DNA of 64,000 nt, from NCBI GenBank assembly GCA_017555595.1, contig JAFZGC010000067.1, forward strand, positions 514 to 64,513, given 5' to 3'. Position 1 is the first letter of the stretch. Each line of letters opens with the position of its first letter. This DNA is from Paludibacteraceae bacterium. GTDB lineage: Bacteria > Bacteroidota > Bacteroidia > Bacteroidales > Paludibacteraceae. Position numbers and translations under genes: made by a program. Below, piece after piece: positions 1-45,821 of the stretch. The notes below the pieces were generated by a model. That model was not told the DNA's origin and searched no databases. It worked only from the letters and a program-made list of their open reading frames with translations.

Positions 1-29
1 TTCAGTTTGATACGAATCTTTTGACTCAT
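1..29 (-). CDS. rpsJ: 30S ribosomal protein S10, first 9 codons only (gene runs off the left edge)
   Basis: The reverse complement of 1-29 reads ATG AGT CAA AAG ATT CGT ATC AAA CTG = MSQKIRIKL, the usual S10 N-terminus. It lies downstream of fusA. Confidence 0.6.
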
Positions 30-3008: not shown

Positions 3009-3056
3009 TGTTTTGTTTTGTTTTTTGTTGATTGTCTTAACTTCAGCAGGTTTCTT

Positions 3057-3091
3057 CAGCCTCTCGCCTTTAGCCTTTAGCCTCTCGCCTC
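3057..3091. repeat. Five heptamers cagcctc tcgcctt tagcctt tagcctc tcgcctc in the rpsL-rpsG spacer
   Basis: Exact 7-bp phasing. On the mRNA strand it reads GAGGCGA GAGGCTA AAGGCTA AAGGCGA GAGGCTG. Confidence 0.9.
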
Positions 3092-3186
3092 AAGAACTTA
3101 CTCCACCCTGCTTACTCAACCGATCAACCCATTAATAATCTGTCCCAGCGTATGGAACTTTTAGTTAGTTTTGTCAGAATAACCCT

Positions 3187-22279: not shown

Positions 22280-23056
22280 TCACAATTTTATAACAAAAAG
22301 TGCTTTTGCATTCGCTGTTGTCTGCTCTACAACATGTTCTACAGAACAATTATACACCTCTGCCAAACGCTCTGCCACATACCGCATCCAGCGACTCTCG
22401 TTGCGCTTGCCGCGATGAGGCACAGGTGCCATATAAGGTGCATCAGTCTCCAACACCAATCGCTCCAACGGGATACCCACCAAATGTTCTGCCAACTTGC
22501 AATTTTTGAACGTCAGCACACCACCAATACCCAAGTAATAACCCATATCTACTACTTGCTTCGCCACCTCATGACTGCCACTAAAGCAGTGCATTACGCC
22601 CGTGACAGATGGAAACTCGCGCAAGATGTTCAGCGTATCCTCTGTCGCATCGCGGCTATGAATCATCACGGGTAAGTGGTATTGCTCTGCCCAACGCATT
22701 TGCTCGCGCAACGCCTCGTGCTGCTGCTCCTTAAACGTCACATCCCAATGATAGTCCAAGCCTATCTCCCCTATGGCTATCAATGGGTAAGAAGAGTTCA
22801 TTCGCTGATCTACAGCTTCTTTCAACACGCGCAGCTGTTCCTGCCAATCCTCCTTCACATTCTCTGGGTGCAAACCCAAAGCGGGAAACAAATACGCAGG
22901 AAAACGGTCACAAACCTCCAGCACATCCTTCGCCGAAGTCTTATCTACCCCAGGCACCAAAATGGCTTCCACACCGCTTTCGCGCTGTTCTGCCAAGAAG
23001 ATCTCCAGTTCTTCCGCATACTGCGGATCATCTATATGACAATGAGTATCTATCAT
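22280..23056 (-). CDS. tatD: TatD family metal-dependent hydrolase
   Basis: 258 aa, MIDTHCHIDDPQY... with conserved His/Asp motifs. Confidence 0.88.
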   Translation of the reverse strand: MIDTHCHIDDPQYAEELEIFLAEQRESGVEAILVPGVDKTSAKDVLEVCDRFPAYLFPALGLHPENVKEDWQEQLRVLKEAVDQRMNSSYPLIAIGEIGLDYHWDVTFKEQQHEALREQMRWAEQYHLPVMIHSRDATEDTLNILREFPSVTGVMHCFSGSHEVAKQVVDMGYYLGIGGVLTFKNCKLAEHLVGIPLERLVLETDAPYMAPVPHRGKRNESRWMRYVAERLAEVYNCSVEHVVEQTTANAKALFVIKL

Positions 23057-24354
23057 TTTCTAAACAAAATACTACTATCTCCGTAACTCAAAAAGCGAAA
23101 ATCATTCGCCAAAGCGTAATCATAAATTCTATGCCAATCACCACCCACAAACGCACTTACCAGCAGCAGCAACGTAGATTTGGGCTGATGGAAATTGGTA
23201 ATCAACTGATCCACTACACGGAACACATACCCAGGCTTAATCATAATCTGCGTCTCGGCGTGCAACACATCCCGCCCCGTCTGCTCCAAATAATCCACTA
23301 TTGCTTGCAATGCCTCGCGCGTAGAGAGCGCATACTCCTTCTCATAAGGTTCAAACTGCGAAACGGAGAGCACAGCATCTCCAGTATCCGGTGTCCGGTA
23401 TCCAGATTCCAACTTTTCCCCAAGGAAATACAAACTCTCCAACGTCCGCATACTCGTCGTTCCTACCGCCACAATATGCCCTAGATTCTCAGCAATCGTC
23501 CGTATCGTATCCTTTGGCACTGCTATAATCTCGGTGTGCATGGTATGTTGGTTGGCGTCAGCCACCTTTACGGGTTGGAAAGTACCAGCACCCACGTGCA
23601 AGGTCACTTCCGCTGTTTGTATTCCTCGCTCACGCAAACCATTTAGCACATTTTCAGTAAAATGCAGACCCGCCGTGGGCGCAGCCACCGAACCCTTGAT
23701 ACGCGAGTACACCGTCTGATAGGTCGTCTTATCGCTCTCCTCAGTCTTTCGATTCAAATACGGAGGAATAGGCAACTCGCCCACTGCATCCAATATCTCT
23801 GCGAAACTTATATTTAGACCGCCACTGGCTGTTAGACCATTACACTGTTGGATCACTTCGTTGTCAGACCGCTGCGCTGTCAGATTCCAAGCGAAGCGTA
23901 CAGCGAAAGTATTGCCTGTTTGTTCGCCTTTTTCAGCAAAGAGAGTTATCGTTTCACCAGAAGCAAGTTGTACAGGCAGAGATAATGCACCCGCCTTCCA
24001 CTTCTTGGCGTTGCCAATCATACACTTCCACGTACAACCCTCTGTGCTACCCAACGACAATTGATAATCATGCGGCGCTATTGGCTCCAAGCAGAAAATC
24101 TCTATGCGAGCGCCTCTTGCCTTGTCGCCTACTTCCTTGTGAAACTCCAATCGCGCTTGTATCACGCGCGTGTTATTATATATAAGGAGTGAGCCCGGAG
24201 CCAAGTATTCTCCTACTTGGTAAAAATGATCTTCGCTCACTTGTCCATCGCGATAGACGAGCAGCTTGCTTTGATCGCGATTTGCCAATGGATATTTGGC
24301 AATTCGTTCGTCAGGCAAAGGGTAATTGTATTCTTCTATAAGGATTTCTTCCAT
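23053..24354 (-). CDS. queA: S-adenosylmethionine:tRNA ribosyltransferase-isomerase
   Basis: 433 aa with YNYPLPDERIAKYPL...SKLLV...PIPPYL...TNFHQPKSTLLLLVSAF. Confidence 0.9.
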   Translation of the reverse strand: MEEILIEEYNYPLPDERIAKYPLANRDQSKLLVYRDGQVSEDHFYQVGEYLAPGSLLIYNNTRVIQARLEFHKEVGDKARGARIEIFCLEPIAPHDYQLSLGSTEGCTWKCMIGNAKKWKAGALSLPVQLASGETITLFAEKGEQTGNTFAVRFAWNLTAQRSDNEVIQQCNGLTASGGLNISFAEILDAVGELPIPPYLNRKTEESDKTTYQTVYSRIKGSVAAPTAGLHFTENVLNGLRERGIQTAEVTLHVGAGTFQPVKVADANQHTMHTEIIAVPKDTIRTIAENLGHIVAVGTTSMRTLESLYFLGEKLESGYRTPDTGDAVLSVSQFEPYEKEYALSTREALQAIVDYLEQTGRDVLHAETQIMIKPGYVFRVVDQLITNFHQPKSTLLLLVSAFVGGDWHRIYDYALANDFRFLSYGDSSILFRK

Positions 24355-25546: not shown

Positions 25547-26620
25547 TTACTTGCTAACACGCAGATAAAGCACCACGCCAATAGCAAAGAATAGAAAGTT
25601 AGGCAACCATACGCTCATAAAAGGCGACATGATACCATTTACCGAAAATGTTGTCGAAACGGTCGAGAACAGAATATATAACGCACTAAGTGTCAATCCT
25701 ATTCCTAAATTCTTACCCATTCCACCTCGCACTTTCTTCGAACTCAACGTAACGCCTAATAGGGTCATAATAAACGCACCTACAGGACTTGCCCAACGTT
25801 TCCACCATTCAGTTTCAAAGGCATTTACATTGCCCGAACCACGTTGACGTTGCGTTTCAATATATGCTTTCAATTCTGGATTCGGCATCATCTGGGCATT
25901 CTCTGCAGTGTAGAATAGCTCTTTGGGTAGTACAGGAATAATCGTATCCAAACGATTGCCACGTGTCAGTGTTTCTCGCATGCCATCAAAATCACGGCGC
26001 ACATATTTGTCAAAATGCCAATTATAGGCAGAATCGTAATGAATACGATCAGCTGTGATACGCATGGTCAGTTTCTTGCCTTCAAAATGCTCATAAGAGG
26101 CACGATATCCCATCTGCGTACGTTTTTGGAAACTCTCGATATAAAGAATCGTACCTGGTTCTACCTCCATCTGCACATTACGAGCATTCTCCCGAGTGAA
26201 GTGCTGAATATACTTGTCTTGAAAAGTAAGCATCTTCTCTGAAGCAGGCGGAATCACATAACCTGTCATCCAAAACGAGAAGAGAAACAATAGCAGAGCA
26301 CTAACAAAATAAGGCCACATCAACCGATGATAGCTCACACCACTCGCCAATATTGCAATTATCTCACTATCACCCGCCAGTTTCGACGTGAAGAAAATCA
26401 CCGAAATGAAGATGAATAGCGGACTAAACATATTCATAAAATAGGGGATAAAGTTTAGGTAATAATCAAAGACAATCTCTCGAATAGAGACTTGATTTTC
26501 AAAGAAATCATCCAATTTCTCCGTCAAGTCAAAGATAACGGCAATAACCATAATCAACACAATCGAAAAGAAGAATGTGCCCAAAAACTTACCGATGATA
26601 TATCTATCAATTCGCTTCAC
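25547..26620 (-). CDS. LptF/LptG family LPS export permease
   Basis: 357 aa, (GTG)KRIDRYIIGKFLGTFFFSIVLIM..., with six TM segments. Confidence 0.85.
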   Translation of the reverse strand: MKRIDRYIIGKFLGTFFFSIVLIMVIAVIFDLTEKLDDFFENQVSIREIVFDYYLNFIPYFMNMFSPLFIFISVIFFTSKLAGDSEIIAILASGVSYHRLMWPYFVSALLLFLFSFWMTGYVIPPASEKMLTFQDKYIQHFTRENARNVQMEVEPGTILYIESFQKRTQMGYRASYEHFEGKKLTMRITADRIHYDSAYNWHFDKYVRRDFDGMRETLTRGNRLDTIIPVLPKELFYTAENAQMMPNPELKAYIETQRQRGSGNVNAFETEWWKRWASPVGAFIMTLLGVTLSSKKVRGGMGKNLGIGLTLSALYILFSTVSTTFSVNGIMSPFMSVWLPNFLFFAIGVVLYLRVSK

Positions 26621-26650
26621 CCTTTAACCTATAACCTTTAACCTACATCC
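26621..26650. repeat. Heptamer array cctttaa cctataa cctttaa cctacat
   Basis: The array forms the entire 22-nt tgt-lptF/G spacer and runs into the tgt stop codon at 26643-26645. Confidence 0.85.
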
Positions 26651-27782
26651 TCTGCATCAATCGTGGGGTGATTTCGTCTTTCCAAACTTTGAAGTCGCCT
26701 GCGAGGATATGCTTGCGTGCTTCGCCCACCAACCATAGGTAGAACGCCAAGTTGTGAATACTCAATATCTCCAACCCCAACATCTCTTGTGCGTGGATCA
26801 GGTGACGCACATACGCGCGGGTATAGTGATGATCCACAAAACTGGTGCCGCATGGGTCCAATTCAGTGAAGTCGTCTTCCCACTTCTTGTTGCGCAGGTT
26901 CATCACACCATTCTGCGTAAAGATCATACCATTGCGACCATTACGCGTTGGCATAACGCAATCGAACATATCCACTCCGCGCTCAATACCCTCAAGGATA
27001 TTCCACGGTGTACCTACTCCCATCAAGTAGCGAGGTTTATTCTCTGGTAGAATGTCATTCACCACTTCAATCATCGCATACATATCTTCAGTAGGCTCGC
27101 CTACCGCCAATCCACCTATGGCATACCCATCGCGATCCAAATCGCGCAAGCGTTTAGCCGCCTCCTGACGCAAGTCAGGATAAACACAGCCCTGCACAAT
27201 AGGAAAGAGGTGCTGCTTGTAACCATACAGATCAGGCGTAGAATCGAAGCGCGCAATACAGCGGTCGAGCCAGCGATGCGTACGCTCCATAGATTTCTGC
27301 GCATAAGTTCGGTCTGCTGTACCAGGGCAGCACTCGTCAAAAGCCATCATAATATCCGCCCCTATCTCGCGCTCAATATCCATGACACTCTCAGGGGTGA
27401 ACATCAGTTTGCGTCCATCAATATGCGAGGAGAACTGCACACCCTCCTCGGTCATTTTGCGAATGTCGGTCAGCGAAAACACTTGAAAACCGCCCGAATC
27501 GGTCAGTATTGGGCGTGTCCACCCCTCAAAACGGTGCAATCCGCCTGCCTTATGCAAGATCTCGGTGCCTGGACGAAGGTACAGGTGGTATGTGTTACCT
27601 AATATGATTTGGGCGTTAATATCCTCTTCAAGGAAAGTACGCTGCACTCCTTTCACAGTACCCACGGTGCCTACGGGCATAAAAATAGGGGTTTGGATAT
27701 CCCCATGGTCGGTATGCACCACGCCAGCGCGTGCGCACGTGTGCACGTCCGTATGTATCAGGTCAAAAAAAGTTTTTTCCAT
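26643..27782 (-). CDS. tgt: tRNA-guanine transglycosylase (queuine tRNA-ribosyltransferase)
   Basis: 379 aa with TPIFMPVGT, DSGGFQ and the zinc-site region. Confidence 0.93.
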   Translation of the reverse strand: MEKTFFDLIHTDVHTCARAGVVHTDHGDIQTPIFMPVGTVGTVKGVQRTFLEEDINAQIILGNTYHLYLRPGTEILHKAGGLHRFEGWTRPILTDSGGFQVFSLTDIRKMTEEGVQFSSHIDGRKLMFTPESVMDIEREIGADIMMAFDECCPGTADRTYAQKSMERTHRWLDRCIARFDSTPDLYGYKQHLFPIVQGCVYPDLRQEAAKRLRDLDRDGYAIGGLAVGEPTEDMYAMIEVVNDILPENKPRYLMGVGTPWNILEGIERGVDMFDCVMPTRNGRNGMIFTQNGVMNLRNKKWEDDFTELDPCGTSFVDHHYTRAYVRHLIHAQEMLGLEILSIHNLAFYLWLVGEARKHILAGDFKVWKDEITPRLMQRM

Positions 27783-37670: not shown

Positions 37671-38669
37671 CTACACCAACGTCTTGCCAACCGCTTTGGC
37701 TATCGGTTGCAACGATGCATACATGTCCGCAAACTGCTGGTGGTCAAGCTGCTGTGCAGCATCACTCTGAGCGCACGATGGACATGGGTGCGTCTCAATC
37801 AACAAACCATCTACACCCATTGCAGTACAAGCACGAGCCAAATCGCCAATGCCATAGACATAACCCATCGCATGGCTTGGATCGAGGATAATAGGCAGAT
37901 TACAATGCTCTTTCAACCATGCTACGCCACAAAGATCCAATGTGAAACGGGTATTGGTCTCAAAACTGCGGATACCACGCTCGCACAAGATAACCTGATC
38001 ATTGCCACAACTCATAATGAAATCGGCACAGTTGACTAGTTCCTGCAAAGTCGAACCAAAACCGCGCTTCAGTATCACAGGTTTGCCCGACTGACCCGCT
38101 GCGGTCAGCAGCCCGTGGTCATACATGGCCTTGGCACCCACCTGCACAATATCAGCATACTCCACCACCTTGTCGGCATGCGTAGCATCGCGCATCTCGG
38201 TGGCAATCAGTAGTCCGTACTTCTCGCGCATCTCTGCCAGCAACTTCAATCCGTCTTCGCCCAATCCGCGAAAGGTGTAAGGCGATGTGCGAGGCTTATA
38301 GCTACCTGCGCGCAACACACGAATACCTTGTTGCTTGAGCATCTGACACGACTGCTCAATCTGCTCCCTACTCTCCACCGCACATGGACCTGCAATCATC
38401 AGTTGGTTTTTGCCATCGCCTCCAATATAGGTATCGCCAATCGCAATACGGTGTGTCTCTGGCATATATTGTCGTGAGGAGAGTTGCATGTCTGTTTGGA
38501 ACACCCAGTGATTGAGTGCTATGTCTGCGAATTGAGTTGGCAGTTGCTTGACAGTATGATTGGTGATTAGCACGTAATGCTCTGGTTGTTCCAAACACAA
38601 TGCACCTGCACTCTCCGCGTATGCATGCGCGCTTGCGCGCGTTATATTTTTAGGTAGATGAATTATCAT
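37671..38669 (-). CDS. 3-deoxy-7-phosphoheptulonate (DAHP) synthase, type I-beta, with an N-terminal ~85-aa regulatory-type extension
   Basis: 332 aa with MIAGPCAVES, SYKPRTSPYTFRGLG and ILDPSH, motifs of the KDO8PS-like DAHPS subfamily. Confidence 0.8.
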   Translation of the reverse strand: MIIHLPKNITRASAHAYAESAGALCLEQPEHYVLITNHTVKQLPTQFADIALNHWVFQTDMQLSSRQYMPETHRIAIGDTYIGGDGKNQLMIAGPCAVESREQIEQSCQMLKQQGIRVLRAGSYKPRTSPYTFRGLGEDGLKLLAEMREKYGLLIATEMRDATHADKVVEYADIVQVGAKAMYDHGLLTAAGQSGKPVILKRGFGSTLQELVNCADFIMSCGNDQVILCERGIRSFETNTRFTLDLCGVAWLKEHCNLPIILDPSHAMGYVYGIGDLARACTAMGVDGLLIETHPCPSCAQSDAAQQLDHQQFADMYASLQPIAKAVGKTLV

Positions 38670-38672
38670 TTT

Positions 38673-38707
38673 GTCAATTCAAAATTCTTAATTCTTAATT
38701 CAAAATT
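38673..38707. repeat. Heptamer array gtcaatt caaaatt cttaatt cttaatt caaaatt
   Basis: The array fills the kdsD-DAHPS spacer. It carries the same motif as 25512-25539 in the opposite orientation relative to transcription. Confidence 0.85.
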
Positions 38708-39683
38708 ATTTAAAGTCAATGATGTGGTGAATCGATATGATACCGATGATATCGGTCGTTTCTTCTGTTTCGGTCACCGCCAGTGTGGTAATGTTGTAGG
38801 TATCCATCACTGCCAGTGCATCAGTCAGAAGAGCATCCTTAGCAATATGCTTGTAGGATGGTGTCATGATGTCCGCAGCGGTAATATGCACATCGTTGTA
38901 CTTCTGTATCGCACGGCGGATATCGCCATCAGTGATGATACCAATGCAGTTGGCAGTTGATAGTTGACAATTGATAGTTGGCTGTTGGTCATAAACCATA
39001 GTCATACCCAAATGCTTGTCCGACATCTCGCATACCACATCGCGGAACGAAGTACTAACTGCCACGCGTGGCACATCCGTAGTCATCACATTCTGTACGC
39101 GTCCCAGCAGTTTTCTACCCAATGCGCCACCTGGGTGGTAAAGGGCGAAGTTCTCTGCCTTAAACTCGCGCATCTCCATGAGGCATACCATCAGCGCGTC
39201 GCCCATCAGCAAGGTCGCGGTGGTGGAGGTAGTGGGGGCTAATCCCAACGGACAAGCCTCGGTATCCACGTGAATAGAGAGTGCATAATCAGCACGCTGT
39301 GCTAATGGCGAATCCATATTGCCAGTCATTGCCACAATCGTGCAACCCAATCGGTGAAGTGGGTCTATGATATTTAAAATCTCATTGGTAGATCCGCTAT
39401 TGCTAACTAATATTGCCACATCATTAGCATTGATCATACCCAAATCACCATGCACAGCCTCAGCGGCATTCACGAAGATGGATGGAGTGCCTGTCGAAGC
39501 AAACGAAGCCGCCATCTTGTGGGCAATGATACCTGTCTTACCAATACCCATCATTACCACTTTGCCTTGACAATGATATAGCACCTCTACCACCTTGTCA
39601 AAGGTTGCATCAATGCTATTCTTGAGTTTCTCTAACTCGCGAATCTCTTCTTCGAATATCTCTTTTGCTCTATTTGCGTACAT
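38706..39683 (-). CDS. kdsD: Arabinose-5-phosphate isomerase (KpsF/GutQ family; SIS domain plus two CBS domains)
   Basis: 325 aa with GKVVMMGIGKTG, SNSGST and CBS-pair signatures. Confidence 0.88.
   Translation of the reverse strand: MYANRAKEIFEEEIRELEKLKNSIDATFDKVVEVLYHCQGKVVMMGIGKTGIIAHKMAASFASTGTPSIFVNAAEAVHGDLGMINANDVAILVSNSGSTNEILNIIDPLHRLGCTIVAMTGNMDSPLAQRADYALSIHVDTEACPLGLAPTTSTTATLLMGDALMVCLMEMREFKAENFALYHPGGALGRKLLGRVQNVMTTDVPRVAVSTSFRDVVCEMSDKHLGMTMVYDQQPTINCQLSTANCIGIITDGDIRRAIQKYNDVHITAADIMTPSYKHIAKDALLTDALAVMDTYNITTLAVTETEETTDIIGIISIHHIIDFK
38946..38987. repeat. Six heptamers (plus strand gcagttg gcagttg atagttg acaattg atagttg gctgttg) inside the kdsD coding sequence
   Basis: The 42 nt are in frame and encode QPTINCQLSTANCI within the first CBS domain. 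Confidence 0.85.
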
Positions 39684-39686
39684 AAT

Positions 39687-39728
39687 TCTAGCCTTTAACC
39701 GTTCGCCTTTAACCTCTAACCTCTCGCC
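39687..39728. repeat. Six heptamers tctagcc tttaacc gttcgcc tttaacc tctaacc tctcgcc
   Basis: The array spans the kdsA-kdsD junction. It provides the last four kdsA codons (QARG), the TAG stop at 39716-39718 and the whole spacer up to 3 nt before the kdsD ATG. Confidence 0.9.
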
Positions 39729-40516
39729 TGCTCAATCGCCATCGCTTGCCTCAGTATCGCTTCTACATCGCTCAAACGTACTTGATTGGCAGCGTCGGAG
39801 ATGGCTTTTTCTGGTTCTGGGTGAACCTCCAAGAATAGTCCATCTATGCCTACTGCCACCGCCGCACGAATCAGATGCGGTACCATCTCTCGGTTGCCGC
39901 CCGTCACGCCTGCCTGACTGCTGGGTTGCTGTACGGAGTGGGTAGCATCGAACACAACAGGATAGCCATACTCGCGCATCTTCACCAGCGATGTCATATC
40001 CACAATCAAGTTGCCATAGCCAAAGCTACTTCCGCGCTCCGTGAGCCAAATCCCCGCCTCTTGCCTTTCGCCTCTCGCCTCATCGCCTAATAGTCTTCTC
40101 GCCTCTTCTATCTTCGCTATCGCACCGCGCATGTCCCATGGTGCCATAAACTGCCCCTTCTTCACATTGACAATCTTGCCTGTCTTAGCCGCAGCCACCA
40201 GCAAGTCGGTCTGACGAGAGAGAAAAGCAGGAATCTGCAATACATCCGCCACTTCTGCTACTGGAGCACACTGCCATGACTCATGTACATCGGTCAAGAT
40301 GGGTAAACCGAAAGTAGATTTCACTTCTTGCAAAATCTTCAGTCCTTCGTCCATACCCACACCGCGATCCGACATACTCGTGCGGTTGGCTTTGTCGTAC
40401 GACGATTTGAAGTATAGTGTGATACCCAATCGCTCACAGATCAGCTTCAATGATTCAGCAGTATGCATCACGATATCGCGGCTCTCTATGGCACATGGCC
40501 CTGCTATCAGAAACAT
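39716..40516 (-). CDS. kdsA: 2-dehydro-3-deoxyphosphooctonate aldolase (KDO-8-phosphate synthase)
   Basis: 266 aa with [34 protein letters not shown] and FDATHS. Confidence 0.92.
40054..40105. repeat. Heptamer-type array (ccgcctc ttgcctt tcgcctc tcgcctc atcgcct ... ttctcgcctc) inside the kdsA coding sequence
   Basis: It encodes ...[16 protein letters not shown]... The corresponding E. coli KdsA segment, as I remember it, is about 11 aa shorter. Confidence 0.75.
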
Positions 40517-40564: not shown

Positions 40565-41638
40565 TTACTTTGTAAAGACGCGTATCCAATCAATTTTCAA
40601 CTGACCAGCGCCTGCTTTTTGGTTCTCAGGCAAGTAACTGCGAACCAACAAGTGCATCGCTTCGCCTGCCAACGCATTCTTCTCGCGTTTTACCTCTTGG
40701 TCGTTTACATAACTGATAACCTCTTTCTCATTCCAGACGAGGGTGTAGATTACTTCGCCCTTAGCTGGTTGAGAGATGATTGGCAATGCCTTTTGCACTT
40801 CTGAAGTAGTGAGACAAAGCACATGATTAGCCTTGCCCGAACAGCACACCTTTGCTTGCAGCACACCTGCTGCTGGAGCCACTGCCTCAGCAGTATGCCA
40901 CACATCGCTGGTGTAAGCAAACTCTTGCATAACCATACCTTTGGTTGGATGCCAAGCAGCTGCGGTAGCTTTCTCCTTCTTGGTTGTAATGGTTAATGCG
41001 CTACCTGCTACATTAGTATTCTTACCTTGGGTGTAGGCCTGCAATTCGCCCACATGCGAGTGATTAGCCTTTAGTTCCTTGCTTGGATAGAGGAAACCTG
41101 TTTGCCATACATTGGACATTTGGCTAGTCTCAAATTCCTCCGCCCACACAGTCTTATAATTCTCTAATTCAACGATTTGCTTCTCATCTTGCGCCAAGAA
41201 GAACACAATATCTGCGTGCTTCGCCAATTCGTTATAGCGCTTCTCTTGTTGGCTCTCTGAGGTAGTAAACCAGCGCTTAGCGTTCTTCCAAAATGCATTG
41301 TTTTTTTGGAACTCTGGCTCTTGTATTTGCGCAGCCAATTCAAGGTATTGTGCTACCTCCGCTTTCTCCTTGTATGCTTCTTTCTTGAGCAAGTTGTATA
41401 GAACAACTGAGGTGTTCCACTTCAGGCTCTTGTATTGCGCCATGGTCTTTCCCTCTGGAGTGTCTGCATAACGGGTGCTAGTCAACTCTTTTTTCTTGGC
41501 TTGGAAATCAACTGATTCTACCACTTGCTTCAGGTTGTTGTATTCAGCCAAGATATCGCTCTTCTCTACTTGGCGATATCGCACGATAGTTTGTGCTTGT
41601 TCCTGAAGCCATTGCTCAAATGATTTGGTACTTTTCAT
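40565..41638 (-). CDS. Hypothetical cytoplasmic protein: helical N-terminal half and beta-sandwich-like C-terminal half ending ...LKIDWIRVFTK
   Basis: 357 aa with no signal peptide. No family was recognised with confidence. Confidence 0.6.
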   Translation of the reverse strand: MKSTKSFEQWLQEQAQTIVRYRQVEKSDILAEYNNLKQVVESVDFQAKKKELTSTRYADTPEGKTMAQYKSLKWNTSVVLYNLLKKEAYKEKAEVAQYLELAAQIQEPEFQKNNAFWKNAKRWFTTSESQQEKRYNELAKHADIVFFLAQDEKQIVELENYKTVWAEEFETSQMSNVWQTGFLYPSKELKANHSHVGELQAYTQGKNTNVAGSALTITTKKEKATAAAWHPTKGMVMQEFAYTSDVWHTAEAVAPAAGVLQAKVCCSGKANHVLCLTTSEVQKALPIISQPAKGEVIYTLVWNEKEVISYVNDQEVKREKNALAGEAMHLLVRSYLPENQKAGAGQLKIDWIRVFTK

Positions 41639-45782: not shown

Positions 45783-45786
45783 ACTA

Positions 45787-45821
45787 GGCGAGAGGTTAGA
45801 GGTTAGAGGTTAAAGGCGGGG
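45787..45821. repeat. Five heptamers ggcgaga ggttaga ggttaga ggttaaa ggcgggg
   Basis: On the minus strand the array encodes the last residues ...PPLTSNL and the TAA stop of the exonuclease gene. It lies 4 nt upstream of the rlmI-like ATG. Confidence 0.9.

What the first reader, a model, noticed from the sequence alone, without database searches (positions are those of the whole stretch)
38946..38987. In-frame 6 x 7 = 42-nt heptamer array inserted in the first CBS domain of kdsD
On the coding strand the array reads CAACAGC CAACTAT CAATTGT CAACTAT CAACTGC CAACTGC and encodes QPTINCQLSTANCI between ...LGMTMVYDQ and GIITDGDIRR. In the E. coli KdsD sequence as I remember it, the equivalent loop is only about 5 residues (NMMIE). 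Six heptamers give a length divisible by 3, so the essential gene stays in frame. This is a distinct motif family (CAACTRY) from the junction arrays but has the same period, which points to a common generating mechanism acting inside genes as well.
Basis: partly seen in the sequence, partly recalled or inferred. Interest (0 to 1): 0.65.

Follow-up and report, generated by a model that had tools for sequence, protein, structure and literature searches.

The report
Decayed in-frame heptamer repeat in KdsD loop
A six-unit, 7-base tandem repeat sits in frame inside an LPS-precursor enzyme gene of an uncultured gut Paludibacteraceae bacterium, lengthening one surface hairpin by seven amino acids; it is a real but old, decaying coding microsatellite in a lineage unusually rich in 7-base repeats, not an active switch.

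Summary
Window 38946..38987 (- strand) is six heptamers (CAACAGC CAACTAT CAATTGT CAACTAT CAACTGC CAACTGC) encoding Q233-C246 of a 325-aa KpsF/GutQ-family arabinose-5-phosphate isomerase next to kdsA. Relatives show an allelic series. Most have a 9-residue loop (DQLPxGNCL, already weakly 7-periodic in DNA). Some carry a perfect (CAACTGC)x3, which translates exactly to QLPTANC. Several lineages, including the window, carry six decayed units. The net gain is therefore 21 nt (3 units, 7 aa), not 42. Long alleles share derived changes, which suggests one old expansion spread across lineages now 15-20% diverged; kdsD is visibly mosaic by recombination. A second, independent +21-nt heptamer expansion (AAATCAG) occupies the same loop in a 72%-identical relative. 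Among 147 diverse family representatives the loop is usually 6-7 residues; the window's 16 is the longest. Period-7 arrays are strongly over-represented in the window (8-9 against 0.1 or fewer expected) and in related loci, at gene junctions and also in frame in kdsA. No length variants appear in four metagenomes, but only contigs were available. The organism is Paludibacteraceae, not Prevotella. Verdict: a real, ordinary-in-kind coding heptanucleotide repeat, most likely neutral, within a lineage-wide heptamer-repeat habit whose cause is unknown.

The parts
38946..38987 (-). Six-unit heptanucleotide array (CAACAGC CAACTAT CAATTGT CAACTAT CAACTGC CAACTGC) encoding Q233-C246. This is the focal feature.
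   Evidence: sequence and frame. (TRF period 7, 6.1 copies, 75%). (homologous perfect 3x and decayed 6x alleles).
38706..39683 (-). KpsF/GutQ-family arabinose-5-phosphate isomerase gene (kdsD-like), 325 aa, SIS domain plus CBS pair.
   Evidence: ORF. (Pfam SIS 92.5 bits, CBS two stretches). (TIGR00393 316.6 bits against cut-off 203.7; KdsD equivalog model below its cut-off).
38988..39005 (-). Codons for TMVYD (residues 228-232 plus neighbours): the beta strand entering the hairpin, conserved in all relatives.
   Evidence: T228, M229, V230 and Y231 invariant. (aligns to the strand before the gap in 3fna/3k2v). (strand 227-231, low-confidence model).
38916..38945 (-). Codons for IGIITDGDIR: the strand and helix start leaving the hairpin. 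The Ile codon ATT directly after the array is shared (as ATH) by all long alleles.
   Evidence: G248 and I249-D254 invariant.
39688..39729 (-). Junction heptamer array (AGGCGAG AGGTTAG AGGTTAA AGGCGAA CGGTTAA AGGCTAG). It spans the kdsA stop and runs to 4 nt before the kdsD start. The units carry TAA/TAG.
   Evidence: Copy number and motif differ among relatives.
38671..38710 (-). Junction heptamer array (AATTAAG/AATTTTG units) between the kdsD stop and the start of the downstream 3-deoxy-7-phosphoheptulonate synthase gene.
   Evidence: Relatives carry 2 to 6 units, another motif, or no spacer.
40053..40083 (-). In-frame heptamer array of the junction family (GAGGCGA GAGGCGA AAGGCAA GAGGCGG) in a hypervariable loop of kdsA. 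This is a second case of heptamers inside a coding loop.

Best explanation
The array is a decayed coding heptanucleotide microsatellite.

Proposed history:
- The ancestral 9-residue hairpin loop of CBS1 (D-QLPxGNC-L) was already weakly 7-periodic in its codons (CAAyTGC CAnnnGG CAACTGC).
- In one sub-lineage it became a perfect (CAACTGC)x3, which reads QLPTANC.
- Misalignment on this tract (replication slippage or unequal exchange) then added three units (21 nt), giving six units and a 7-aa longer loop. One- or two-unit changes shift the frame of the isomerase and are presumably removed by selection, so only a three-unit step survives.
- The six-unit allele arose once. It has since accumulated point substitutions, many of them amino-acid changing. 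It now sits in several lineages 15-20% diverged in DNA, helped by homologous recombination within kdsD.

The extra residues extend the solvent-exposed beta2-beta3 hairpin tip of the first CBS domain and are most likely near-neutral. The event is one instance of a lineage-wide tendency to form and turn over 7-nt tandem arrays.

Shown: the array, the allelic series, the shared derived states, the recombination mosaic and the period-7 excess.
Inferred: slippage as the molecular step, the direction 3 to 6, purifying selection on frame, and neutrality.
For: - (CAACTGC)x3 translates exactly to QLPTANC. That peptide was seen in 318-aa relatives, and their DNA proved to be the predicted perfect 3x array in five contigs of two alleles.
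- Six-unit alleles occur in the window and in L042, L044, L067, L086-L093. All have T at position 7 of units 3 and 4 and an Ile (ATH) codon after the array. Most have unit 4 = CAACTAT. These are shared derived states.
- The closest species representative (L001) has CAATTGC CAAGTGG CAACTGC, two substitutions from perfect.
- In the 150 nt flanking the loop, the window is nearest to long-allele and perfect-3x relatives (16-22 differences) rather than to its whole-gene neighbours L001 and L002 (26-29).
- Recombination mosaics are visible. L083 against L004 is 98-100% identical over the first 372 nt and 80-88% afterwards.
- An independent parallel exists at the same loop in L062. AGAAATC AGAAGTC AGAAATC AGAAATC AGATTGC stands against two units in its sister L032, again +21 nt.
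- Loop length is 6-7 residues in 124 of 147 diverse representatives. The window's 16 is the maximum.
- Period-7 arrays number 8-9 against 0.1 or fewer expected in the window, with none at periods 8-10. They number 86 against 1.2 expected over 402 kb of related loci.
- Contigs from four metagenomes show no length change.
- An excess of heptanucleotide repeats in bacterial genomes, and a proposed polymerase-slippage cause, are described in PMC4679880, citing Mrazek 2007.
Against: - A slip of three whole units on a 3.3-unit tract has almost no pairing to anchor it, so the one-step 3-to-6 event is mechanistically awkward. A generic 21-nt tandem duplication or unequal exchange fits as well.
- The perfect 3x allele could instead be a secondary contraction. 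Misalignment of unit 2 with unit 5 in the inferred ancestor would also give three perfect units. The direction of that comparison is therefore unresolved.
- The neighbour-joining tree of loop-less kdsD scatters long alleles in three places. I attribute this to recombination and short internal branches, but did not bootstrap it.
- Related loci are homologous, so the 86 arrays are not independent counts.
- Neutrality is assumed. The structural model was poor (pLDDT 54).
Confidence: 0.75

Rival explanations
1. Active contingency locus. The heptamer tract changes length at high frequency, and frameshifts switch the isomerase, and so Kdo/LPS synthesis, on and off.
For: - Heptamer and other short repeats mediate phase variation of LPS genes in some bacteria (background in PMC2651432 and PMC4692102).
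- A perfect 3x tract exists in relatives.
- Junction arrays nearby vary in unit number between strains.
Against: - The window tract is only 74-75% self-identical, with just two adjacent perfect units.
- Contigs from four metagenomes carry the same length.
- Long alleles are stable across lineages 15-20% diverged and change by substitution, not by unit number.
- All 95 loci with the region have intact frames.
- Three perfect units is short for a switch.
Confidence: 0.04
2. Imported or templated insert. The heptamer block was not generated in place. It was copied in from another heptamer array (template switching or gene conversion), or arrived by homologous recombination with a lineage that already carried it. 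This would be the same process that places junction-family heptamers into kdsA.
For: - kdsD is a recombination mosaic, and the long allele's distribution disagrees with the gene tree.
- The kdsA loop carries the junction-family array in forward orientation in some strains and as its reverse complement in others (31/35 nt; score 50 against 8). That is hard to obtain by local slippage.
- Metagenome contigs from other loci carry (CAACTGT)n-like arrays (loose ends).
Against: - No second AACTG-type array exists in the 64-kb window or elsewhere in the 95 loci.
- The ancestral loop already supplies units 1 and 3, and the conserved Asn-Cys codons are the last unit. The array is therefore continuous with local sequence.
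- Spread by recombination is compatible with a local origin, so this is partly a complement and not a rival.
Confidence: 0.15
3. Selected functional loop. The lengthened, fast-changing hairpin alters regulation through the CBS pair, or evades an inhibitor, and is kept by selection.
For: - The same hairpin was lengthened independently at least three times: 15-, 16- and 13-residue classes.
- Amino-acid changes are concentrated in the loop, while flanking differences sit mostly at third codon positions.
- The adjacent kdsA has a similarly hypervariable loop.
Against: - The pattern is equally what relaxed constraint gives.
- No residue of the added half is conserved among long alleles. The first-repeat Cys is replaced by A, T or H.
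- Most of the family works with 6-7 residues.
- No functional test was possible.
Confidence: 0.06

Closest known systems
Long simple sequence repeats (LSSR) with heptanucleotide units in prokaryotic genomes (Mrazek et al. 2007, as summarised in PMC4679880 and PMC4692102)
   Same: - Head-to-tail 7-nt units.
- Heptamers are the dominant unit length among 5-11-nt repeats.
- Unit number differs between strains.
- Polymerase slippage is the proposed cause.
- The same peak at period 7 is seen here.
   Different: - Those surveys stress that repeats inside genes mostly have unit lengths that are multiples of three. Here a 7-nt unit sits inside a conserved enzyme and stays in frame by a three-unit step.
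- The lineage (gut Paludibacteraceae) is not among those highlighted.
TAACTGA heptamer direct repeats of Beggiatoaceae, Cyanobacteria and a few Bacteroidetes, including Paludibacter propionicigenes (MacGregor 2015, PMC4679880)
   Same: - Short sets of heptamers lie just upstream of start codons, with stop codons in all three frames. The junction arrays here (AGGTTAA/AGGCTAA) behave the same way.
- Occasional copies lie inside ORFs.
- The family Paludibacteraceae is represented.
- The kdsD unit CAACTGC shares the AACTG core and equals TAACTGA with both stop triplets changed.
   Different: - The motifs differ, and no TAACTGA array occurs here.
- In that study, in-ORF copies lie at protein ends or in hypothetical proteins. 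Here the array is in an internal hairpin of a conserved enzyme, with an allelic series showing how it arose.
- The core resemblance may be coincidence.
G-rich GGGAATC / GGGGAYT heptamer repeats of Xanthomonas and Nostoc, and the tandem heptanucleotides of Calothrix PCC 7601 (Rehm et al. 2015, PMC4692102)
   Same: - Genome-wide heptamer arrays concentrated between co-directional ORFs.
- Variable unit number, and not conserved at orthologous sites between close species. The junction arrays here behave the same way.
   Different: - Those are G-quadruplex-forming and under-represented in coding regions.
- The arrays here are not G-tract repeats, and two lie in frame in genes.
Phase-variable simple-sequence contingency loci (for example Haemophilus influenzae SSRs, PMC2651432)
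   Same: A short tandem repeat within a gene of LPS-related metabolism.
   Different: - The tract is degenerate.
- It shows no out-of-frame variants.
- It is stable across species-level divergence.

Membership tests
KpsF/GutQ family arabinose-5-phosphate isomerase (host gene) | N-terminal SIS domain followed by a tandem CBS pair | tested here: met
   Pfam SIS 92.5 bits, residues 36-166; CBS 47.8 bits, two stretches.
KpsF/GutQ family arabinose-5-phosphate isomerase (host gene) | Score above the curated NCBIfam cut-off | tested here: met
   TIGR00393 scores 316.6 bits against cut-off 203.7. The KdsD equivalog NF008141 scores 314.6 against cut-off 505, which is not met, so 'KdsD' is a role assigned from context.
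KpsF/GutQ family arabinose-5-phosphate isomerase (host gene) | Genomic link to Kdo synthesis | tested here: met
   Directly downstream of kdsA (NF003543, 391.8 bits against cut-off 242), and the pairing is conserved in relatives.
KpsF/GutQ family arabinose-5-phosphate isomerase (host gene) | A5P/Ru5P isomerase activity; essentiality | not testable with these tools
   No assay was possible. No whole genome was available to look for a paralogue.
Heptanucleotide long simple sequence repeat (LSSR) | Head-to-tail copies of a 5-11-nt unit, longer than chance allows | tested here: met
   Six units, 26/35 shifted matches. TRF period 7. Expected count of such arrays 0.1 or fewer per window.
Heptanucleotide long simple sequence repeat (LSSR) | Unit-number polymorphism at the orthologous site | tested here: met
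   Three perfect units in L083-L085, L094 and L095, against six in the window and eleven other loci.
Heptanucleotide long simple sequence repeat (LSSR) | Generated by strand slippage | not testable with these tools
   Inferred only. Raw reads were not available (all runs are held as contigs).
Phase-variable contingency locus | Long perfect or near-perfect tract | tested here: not met
   75% matches, with at most two adjacent identical units.
Phase-variable contingency locus | Out-of-frame length variants within populations | tested here: inconclusive
   No indels appear in contigs of four metagenomes, but contigs drop rare variants.
TAACTGA-type start-proximal heptamer repeats (MacGregor 2015) | Unit TAACTGA | tested here: not met
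   The unit is CAACTGC or CAACTRY, 5 of 7 shared.
TAACTGA-type start-proximal heptamer repeats (MacGregor 2015) | Intergenic, within a few nt upstream of a start codon, with stops in all frames | tested here: not met
   The kdsD array is internal and stop-free. The neighbouring junction arrays do meet this, with other motifs.
Diversity-generating retroelement variable region | A template repeat elsewhere and adenine-specific variation | tested here: not met
   No second copy occurs in the window or loci. Differences between alleles are not confined to A positions.

The most novel reading that the evidence does not exclude
Gut Paludibacteraceae may have an unrecognised process that seeds and reshuffles 7-nt tandem arrays. 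It would act both at gene junctions and in permissive surface loops of conserved enzymes. It would work in either orientation: the kdsA loop holds the same array forward in some strains and reverse-complemented in others. It would recur at the same hairpin: two unrelated heptamer motifs expanded by +21 nt in the KdsD loop. If so, heptamer arrays would be a lineage-specific engine of protein-loop and intergenic-spacer evolution, not a by-product of ordinary slippage.
Probability: 0.2. Interest if true: 0.7.

Novelty: new member of a known kind. Interest (0 to 1): 0.38.

Why it matters
This is a clean natural example of how a protein loop grows. A codon string drifts into a 7-nt repeat, the repeat expands, and the reading frame filters the outcome to three-unit steps. 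The intermediate (a perfect 3x array) and the product (decayed 6x arrays) are both preserved in living relatives, and an independent replay has occurred at the same hairpin.

It also shows that the heptamer-repeat excess described for cyanobacteria, Beggiatoaceae, xanthomonads and Burkholderia extends to uncultured gut Bacteroidales and reaches inside conserved genes.

In practice, these arrays are strain markers. They are also a source of annotation and alignment errors in MAGs.

Tried and rejected
- Structure prediction with the only alignment allowed (41 sequences, 88% identity or more) gave a poor model: mean pLDDT 54, CBS region below 50. I used it only for strand order and ran no fold search.
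- A read-level test of unit number was impossible. All 21 runs holding the gene are stored as assembler contigs.
- The neighbour-joining tree of kdsD without the loop does not resolve the origin. Internal branches are very short and the gene is recombinant. I relied on shared derived states in and around the array instead.
- Chance or an old conserved loop was rejected.
- A DGR or second-copy template was rejected.
- TAACTGA membership was rejected on motif.

Full report
**1. What is there**

The ORF at window 38706..39683 (- strand) encodes a 325-aa protein with one SIS domain and a CBS pair. It passes the NCBIfam KpsF/GutQ sugar-phosphate isomerase model: TIGR00393, 316.6 bits against cut-off 203.7. 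It falls short of the E. coli-calibrated KdsD equivalog cut-off. It lies directly downstream of kdsA (39716..40516, -) and upstream of a 3-deoxy-7-phosphoheptulonate synthase gene (37671..38669, -). This order is conserved in all relatives examined. 'kdsD' is therefore a reasonable role name from context.

On the coding strand, 38987..38946 reads CAACAGC CAACTAT CAATTGT CAACTAT CAACTGC CAACTGC. It is preceded by GAC (D232) and followed by ATT (I247).

TRF detects the array weakly: period 7, 6.1 copies, 75% matches, score 37; a period-14 reading scores 52.

**2. Is it more than chance?**

Two independent lines say yes.

- Order-3 Markov shuffles of the window give 0.02-0.2 period-7 arrays at three thresholds. 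The window has 6-9. Under a stricter rule it has 4 against 0.
- I noticed that (CAACTGC)x3 translates exactly to QLPTANC, and that some 318-aa homologues have the loop DQLPTANCL. I fetched their DNA. All five contigs (two protein alleles) carry GAC CAACTGC CAACTGC CAACTGC CTT, a perfect three-unit array at the homologous site.

The repeat is therefore real and has a history.

**3. The allelic series**

The organism and its relatives are uncultured Paludibacteraceae (Bacteroidales) from ruminant and other animal guts, not Prevotella. Loop DNA between HLGMTMVY and GIITDGDIRR falls into classes across 95 fetched loci.

| Loop class | Example peptide | Where found | DNA character |
|---|---|---|---|
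| 6 residues | DxxxCV | more distant relatives, about 82-86% identity | not repetitive |
| 9 residues | DQLPxGxCL | widespread | weakly 7-periodic |
| 9 residues, perfect 3x | DQLPTANCL | L083-L085, L094, L095 | (CAACTGC)x3 |
| 15 residues | DQLPEEAEGGMSHCL | L045, L006, L010 | see the passing note on this class |
| 16 residues | DQQPTINCQLSTANCI (window) | window and eleven other loci | six decayed heptamers |

In the 9-residue class, the closest species representative (L001) reads CAATTGC CAAGTGG CAACTGC, two substitutions from perfect. The window's loop is therefore 7 aa (21 nt, three units) longer than the 9-residue class, not 14 aa longer.

The last unit supplies the conserved Asn-Cys. 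C246 and G248 are invariant in the alignment.

Among 147 diverse representatives of the whole family (clusters at 50% identity), the loop is 7 residues in 87 and 6 in 37. The window's 16 is the longest. The solved E. coli-type CBS pairs 3fna and 3k2v align with a 9-residue gap at this point.

**4. One origin, then decay and spread**

All eight distinct long alleles share three features:

- T at position 7 of units 3 and 4;
- an Ile codon (ATT, ATC or ATA) immediately after the array, where short alleles mostly have Leu or Val;
- in five of them, unit 4 = CAACTAT.

The position-wise consensus is about CAACTGC CAACTGC CAAyGcT CAACTAT CAACTGC CAACTGC. These shared derived states indicate a single expansion.

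Alleles now differ by many substitutions, often amino-acid changing (QQPTINCQLSTANC, QLPTANAQLSTANC, QLPTINHQLSTVNC, QLPTTNCQQSTVNY, and others). Differences in the flanks sit mostly at third codon positions. The carriers differ by 15-20% in kdsD DNA. So the insertion is old and under relaxed constraint.

A neighbour-joining tree of loop-less kdsD places long alleles in three positions. Its internal branches are very short, and the gene is clearly mosaic:

- L083 against L004 is 98-100% identical over the first 372 nt and 80-88% afterwards.
- L083 against L094 has a divergent patch just upstream of the loop.
- In the 150 nt flanking the loop, the window is nearest to long-allele and perfect-3x relatives (16-22 differences) rather than to its whole-gene neighbours L001 and L002 (26-29).

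I read this as one origin followed by vertical descent and recombinational spread. I did not bootstrap the tree.

The direction between the perfect 3x and the 6x forms is not settled. Misalignment of unit 2 with unit 5 in the inferred ancestor would delete the decayed middle and also leave three perfect units. Some 3-to-6 step is required in any case, because the outgroup state is the 9-residue loop.

**5. A replay at the same hairpin**

In a 72%-identical relative (L062), the same loop reads GAG AAATCAG AAGTCAG AAATCAG AAATCAG ATTGCGTA, giving 13 residues. Its sister L032 has GAG CAGTCAG CTTGCGTA, giving 6 residues. This is a different motif in a different lineage, again with +21 nt.

Together with the 15-residue class, this hairpin has been lengthened at least three times. 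Two of those events were heptamer expansions by three units.

**6. Is it active now?**

Contigs from four independent gut metagenomes cover the array with 0-3 substitutions and no gaps. The tract has only two adjacent identical units.

Only assembler contigs were available, so rare variants cannot be excluded.

I rate an active phase-variation switch as unlikely.

**7. Where it sits in the protein**

By alignment to 3fna, 3k2v and 4o9k, the array fills the turn between the strand ...GMTMVYD and the strand-helix GIITDGDIRR. That is the beta2-beta3 hairpin of CBS1 in the canonical CBS fold (fold knowledge is established background).

The AlphaFold2 model built from the only permitted, shallow alignment was poor: pLDDT 54, with the CBS region below 50. 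It does place strands at 227-231 and 246-251 around a coil at 232-245. I draw no further structural conclusions.

**8. The wider heptamer habit**

Period 7 is the only strongly over-represented period in the window. It also dominates in 402 kb of related loci: 86 arrays against 1.2 expected, with 10 at period 8 and 16 at period 10. The loci are homologous, so these counts are not independent.

Most arrays sit in short spacers between co-directional genes. Examples are rpsL-rpsG, tgt-lptF/G, kdsA-kdsD, kdsD-DAHP synthase, and an exonuclease-methyltransferase pair.

- The main family (AGGTTAA, AGGTTAG, AGGCTAA, AGGCGAA) carries TAA/TAG. Because 7 is not a multiple of 3, it places stops in all three frames.
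- kdsA ends inside such an array.
- At the two junctions flanking kdsD, unit number and even motif family differ among strains: 2 to 6 units of AATTAAG/AATTTTG, (ACACTAA)x3, (GGTGTAA)x4, a CTACACC family, or no spacer at all.

This matches published descriptions:

- an excess of heptanucleotide LSSRs, with a polymerase-slippage proposal (Mrazek 2007, as summarised in PMC4679880);
- TAACTGA repeats just upstream of start codons, with three-frame stops, in Beggiatoaceae, Cyanobacteria and five Bacteroidetes including Paludibacter propionicigenes;
- GGGAATC-type repeats between aligned ORFs in Xanthomonas and Nostoc.

The period is the same, and a junction-family array lies in frame in kdsA (40053..40083). 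The cause itself was not shown.

**9. Verdict**

The finding is real and correctly located. It is best explained as an old three-unit, frame-preserving expansion of a coding heptanucleotide repeat in a permissive hairpin. It is now decaying and most likely neutral.

In kind it belongs to known bacterial heptamer simple-sequence repeats. The preserved intermediate, the independent replay and the in-frame location in a conserved enzyme make it a neat example and not a new category.

The more unusual observations are in the adjacent kdsA loop and in the lineage-wide array turnover. They are listed separately as passing notes.

Noticed in passing
window 40053-40083 (kdsA, - strand); loci L001-L094, kdsA loop between MAPWDMRGA and [10 protein letters not shown]: kdsA has its own hypervariable loop, 14 to 36 residues long. 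In the window and in L001, L083 and L004 it is built from in-frame junction-family heptamers (GAGGCGA...). In L002, L007, L024, L029, L047 and L008 the same roughly 35-nt block is present as its reverse complement, still in frame: 31/35 nt identical, alignment score 50 against 8 forward, shuffle maximum 25. I saw no flanking inverted repeats, so it does not look like a classical inverton.
   Followed up: partly
L045, L094, L005: kdsA loop: A roughly 45-nt hairpin-forming insert (GCACCCCAAAAATCAGCAGATTTTTCGGGGACCCCGCAGGC, -15.1 kcal/mol) encodes APQKSADFSGTPQ in frame. It is present in these loci but absent from their close kin L083, L004 and L003. It looks like a small palindromic element that inserts into a coding loop.
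   Followed up: partly
window 39688-39729 and 38671-38710; the same junctions in L001-L095: The heptamer arrays at the kdsA/kdsD and kdsD/DAHP-synthase junctions vary between strains in unit number and in motif family, or are absent altogether. The main family carries TAA/TAG, giving stops in all three frames, and kdsA terminates inside it.
   Followed up: partly
window 3054-3095, 26613-26652, 45783-45820: Further junction-family heptamer arrays lie between rpsL and rpsG, between tgt and an lptF/G permease gene, and between a 3'-5' exonuclease gene and a methyltransferase gene. The last is in the opposite orientation relative to its flanking genes.
   Followed up: partly
window 23378-23411, inside queA-like ORF 23053..24354 (-): A period-7 stretch (TCCAGTA TCCGGTG TCCGGTA TCCAGAT) lies inside a QueA homologue. 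That protein is 433 aa against a 322-position Pfam model, so it carries about 100 extra residues. I did not check whether the repeat accounts for part of them.
   Followed up: no
L062 2685-2723 (Ga0310696_10000200): An independent in-frame heptamer expansion (AGAAATC-type, five units against two in L032) occupies the same KdsD CBS1 hairpin in a 72%-identical relative.
   Followed up: yes
metagenome runs X1-X4 laid on window 38937-39002: Depth rises 3- to 10-fold over the array. The cause is short contigs from other loci carrying (CAGTTGA)n, (ACAATTG)n and similar heptamer arrays with unrelated flanks. AACTG-type heptamer arrays therefore exist elsewhere in these communities. Their source could not be fetched.
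   Followed up: no
L083 vs L004 vs L094, kdsD: Sharp identity breaks occur within kdsD: 98-100% over the first 372 nt, then 80-88%. This shows frequent homologous recombination between diverged Paludibacteraceae lineages in this operon.
   Followed up: partly
L045, L006, L010: KdsD loop (15-residue class): The 18-nt extra segment of the 15-residue loop class (GAAGAGGCAGAAGGTGGA / GAAGAGGCAGAGGGCGGA) resembles the purine-rich junction family (AGAGGCG/AAAGGCG). The junction family may therefore also have entered the KdsD loop. The resemblance is weak and was not tested.
   Followed up: no
window 40565-41638 (-): The 357-aa ORF upstream of kdsA, conserved in this position in relatives at 363-364 aa, has no Pfam or NCBIfam match.
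   Followed up: no
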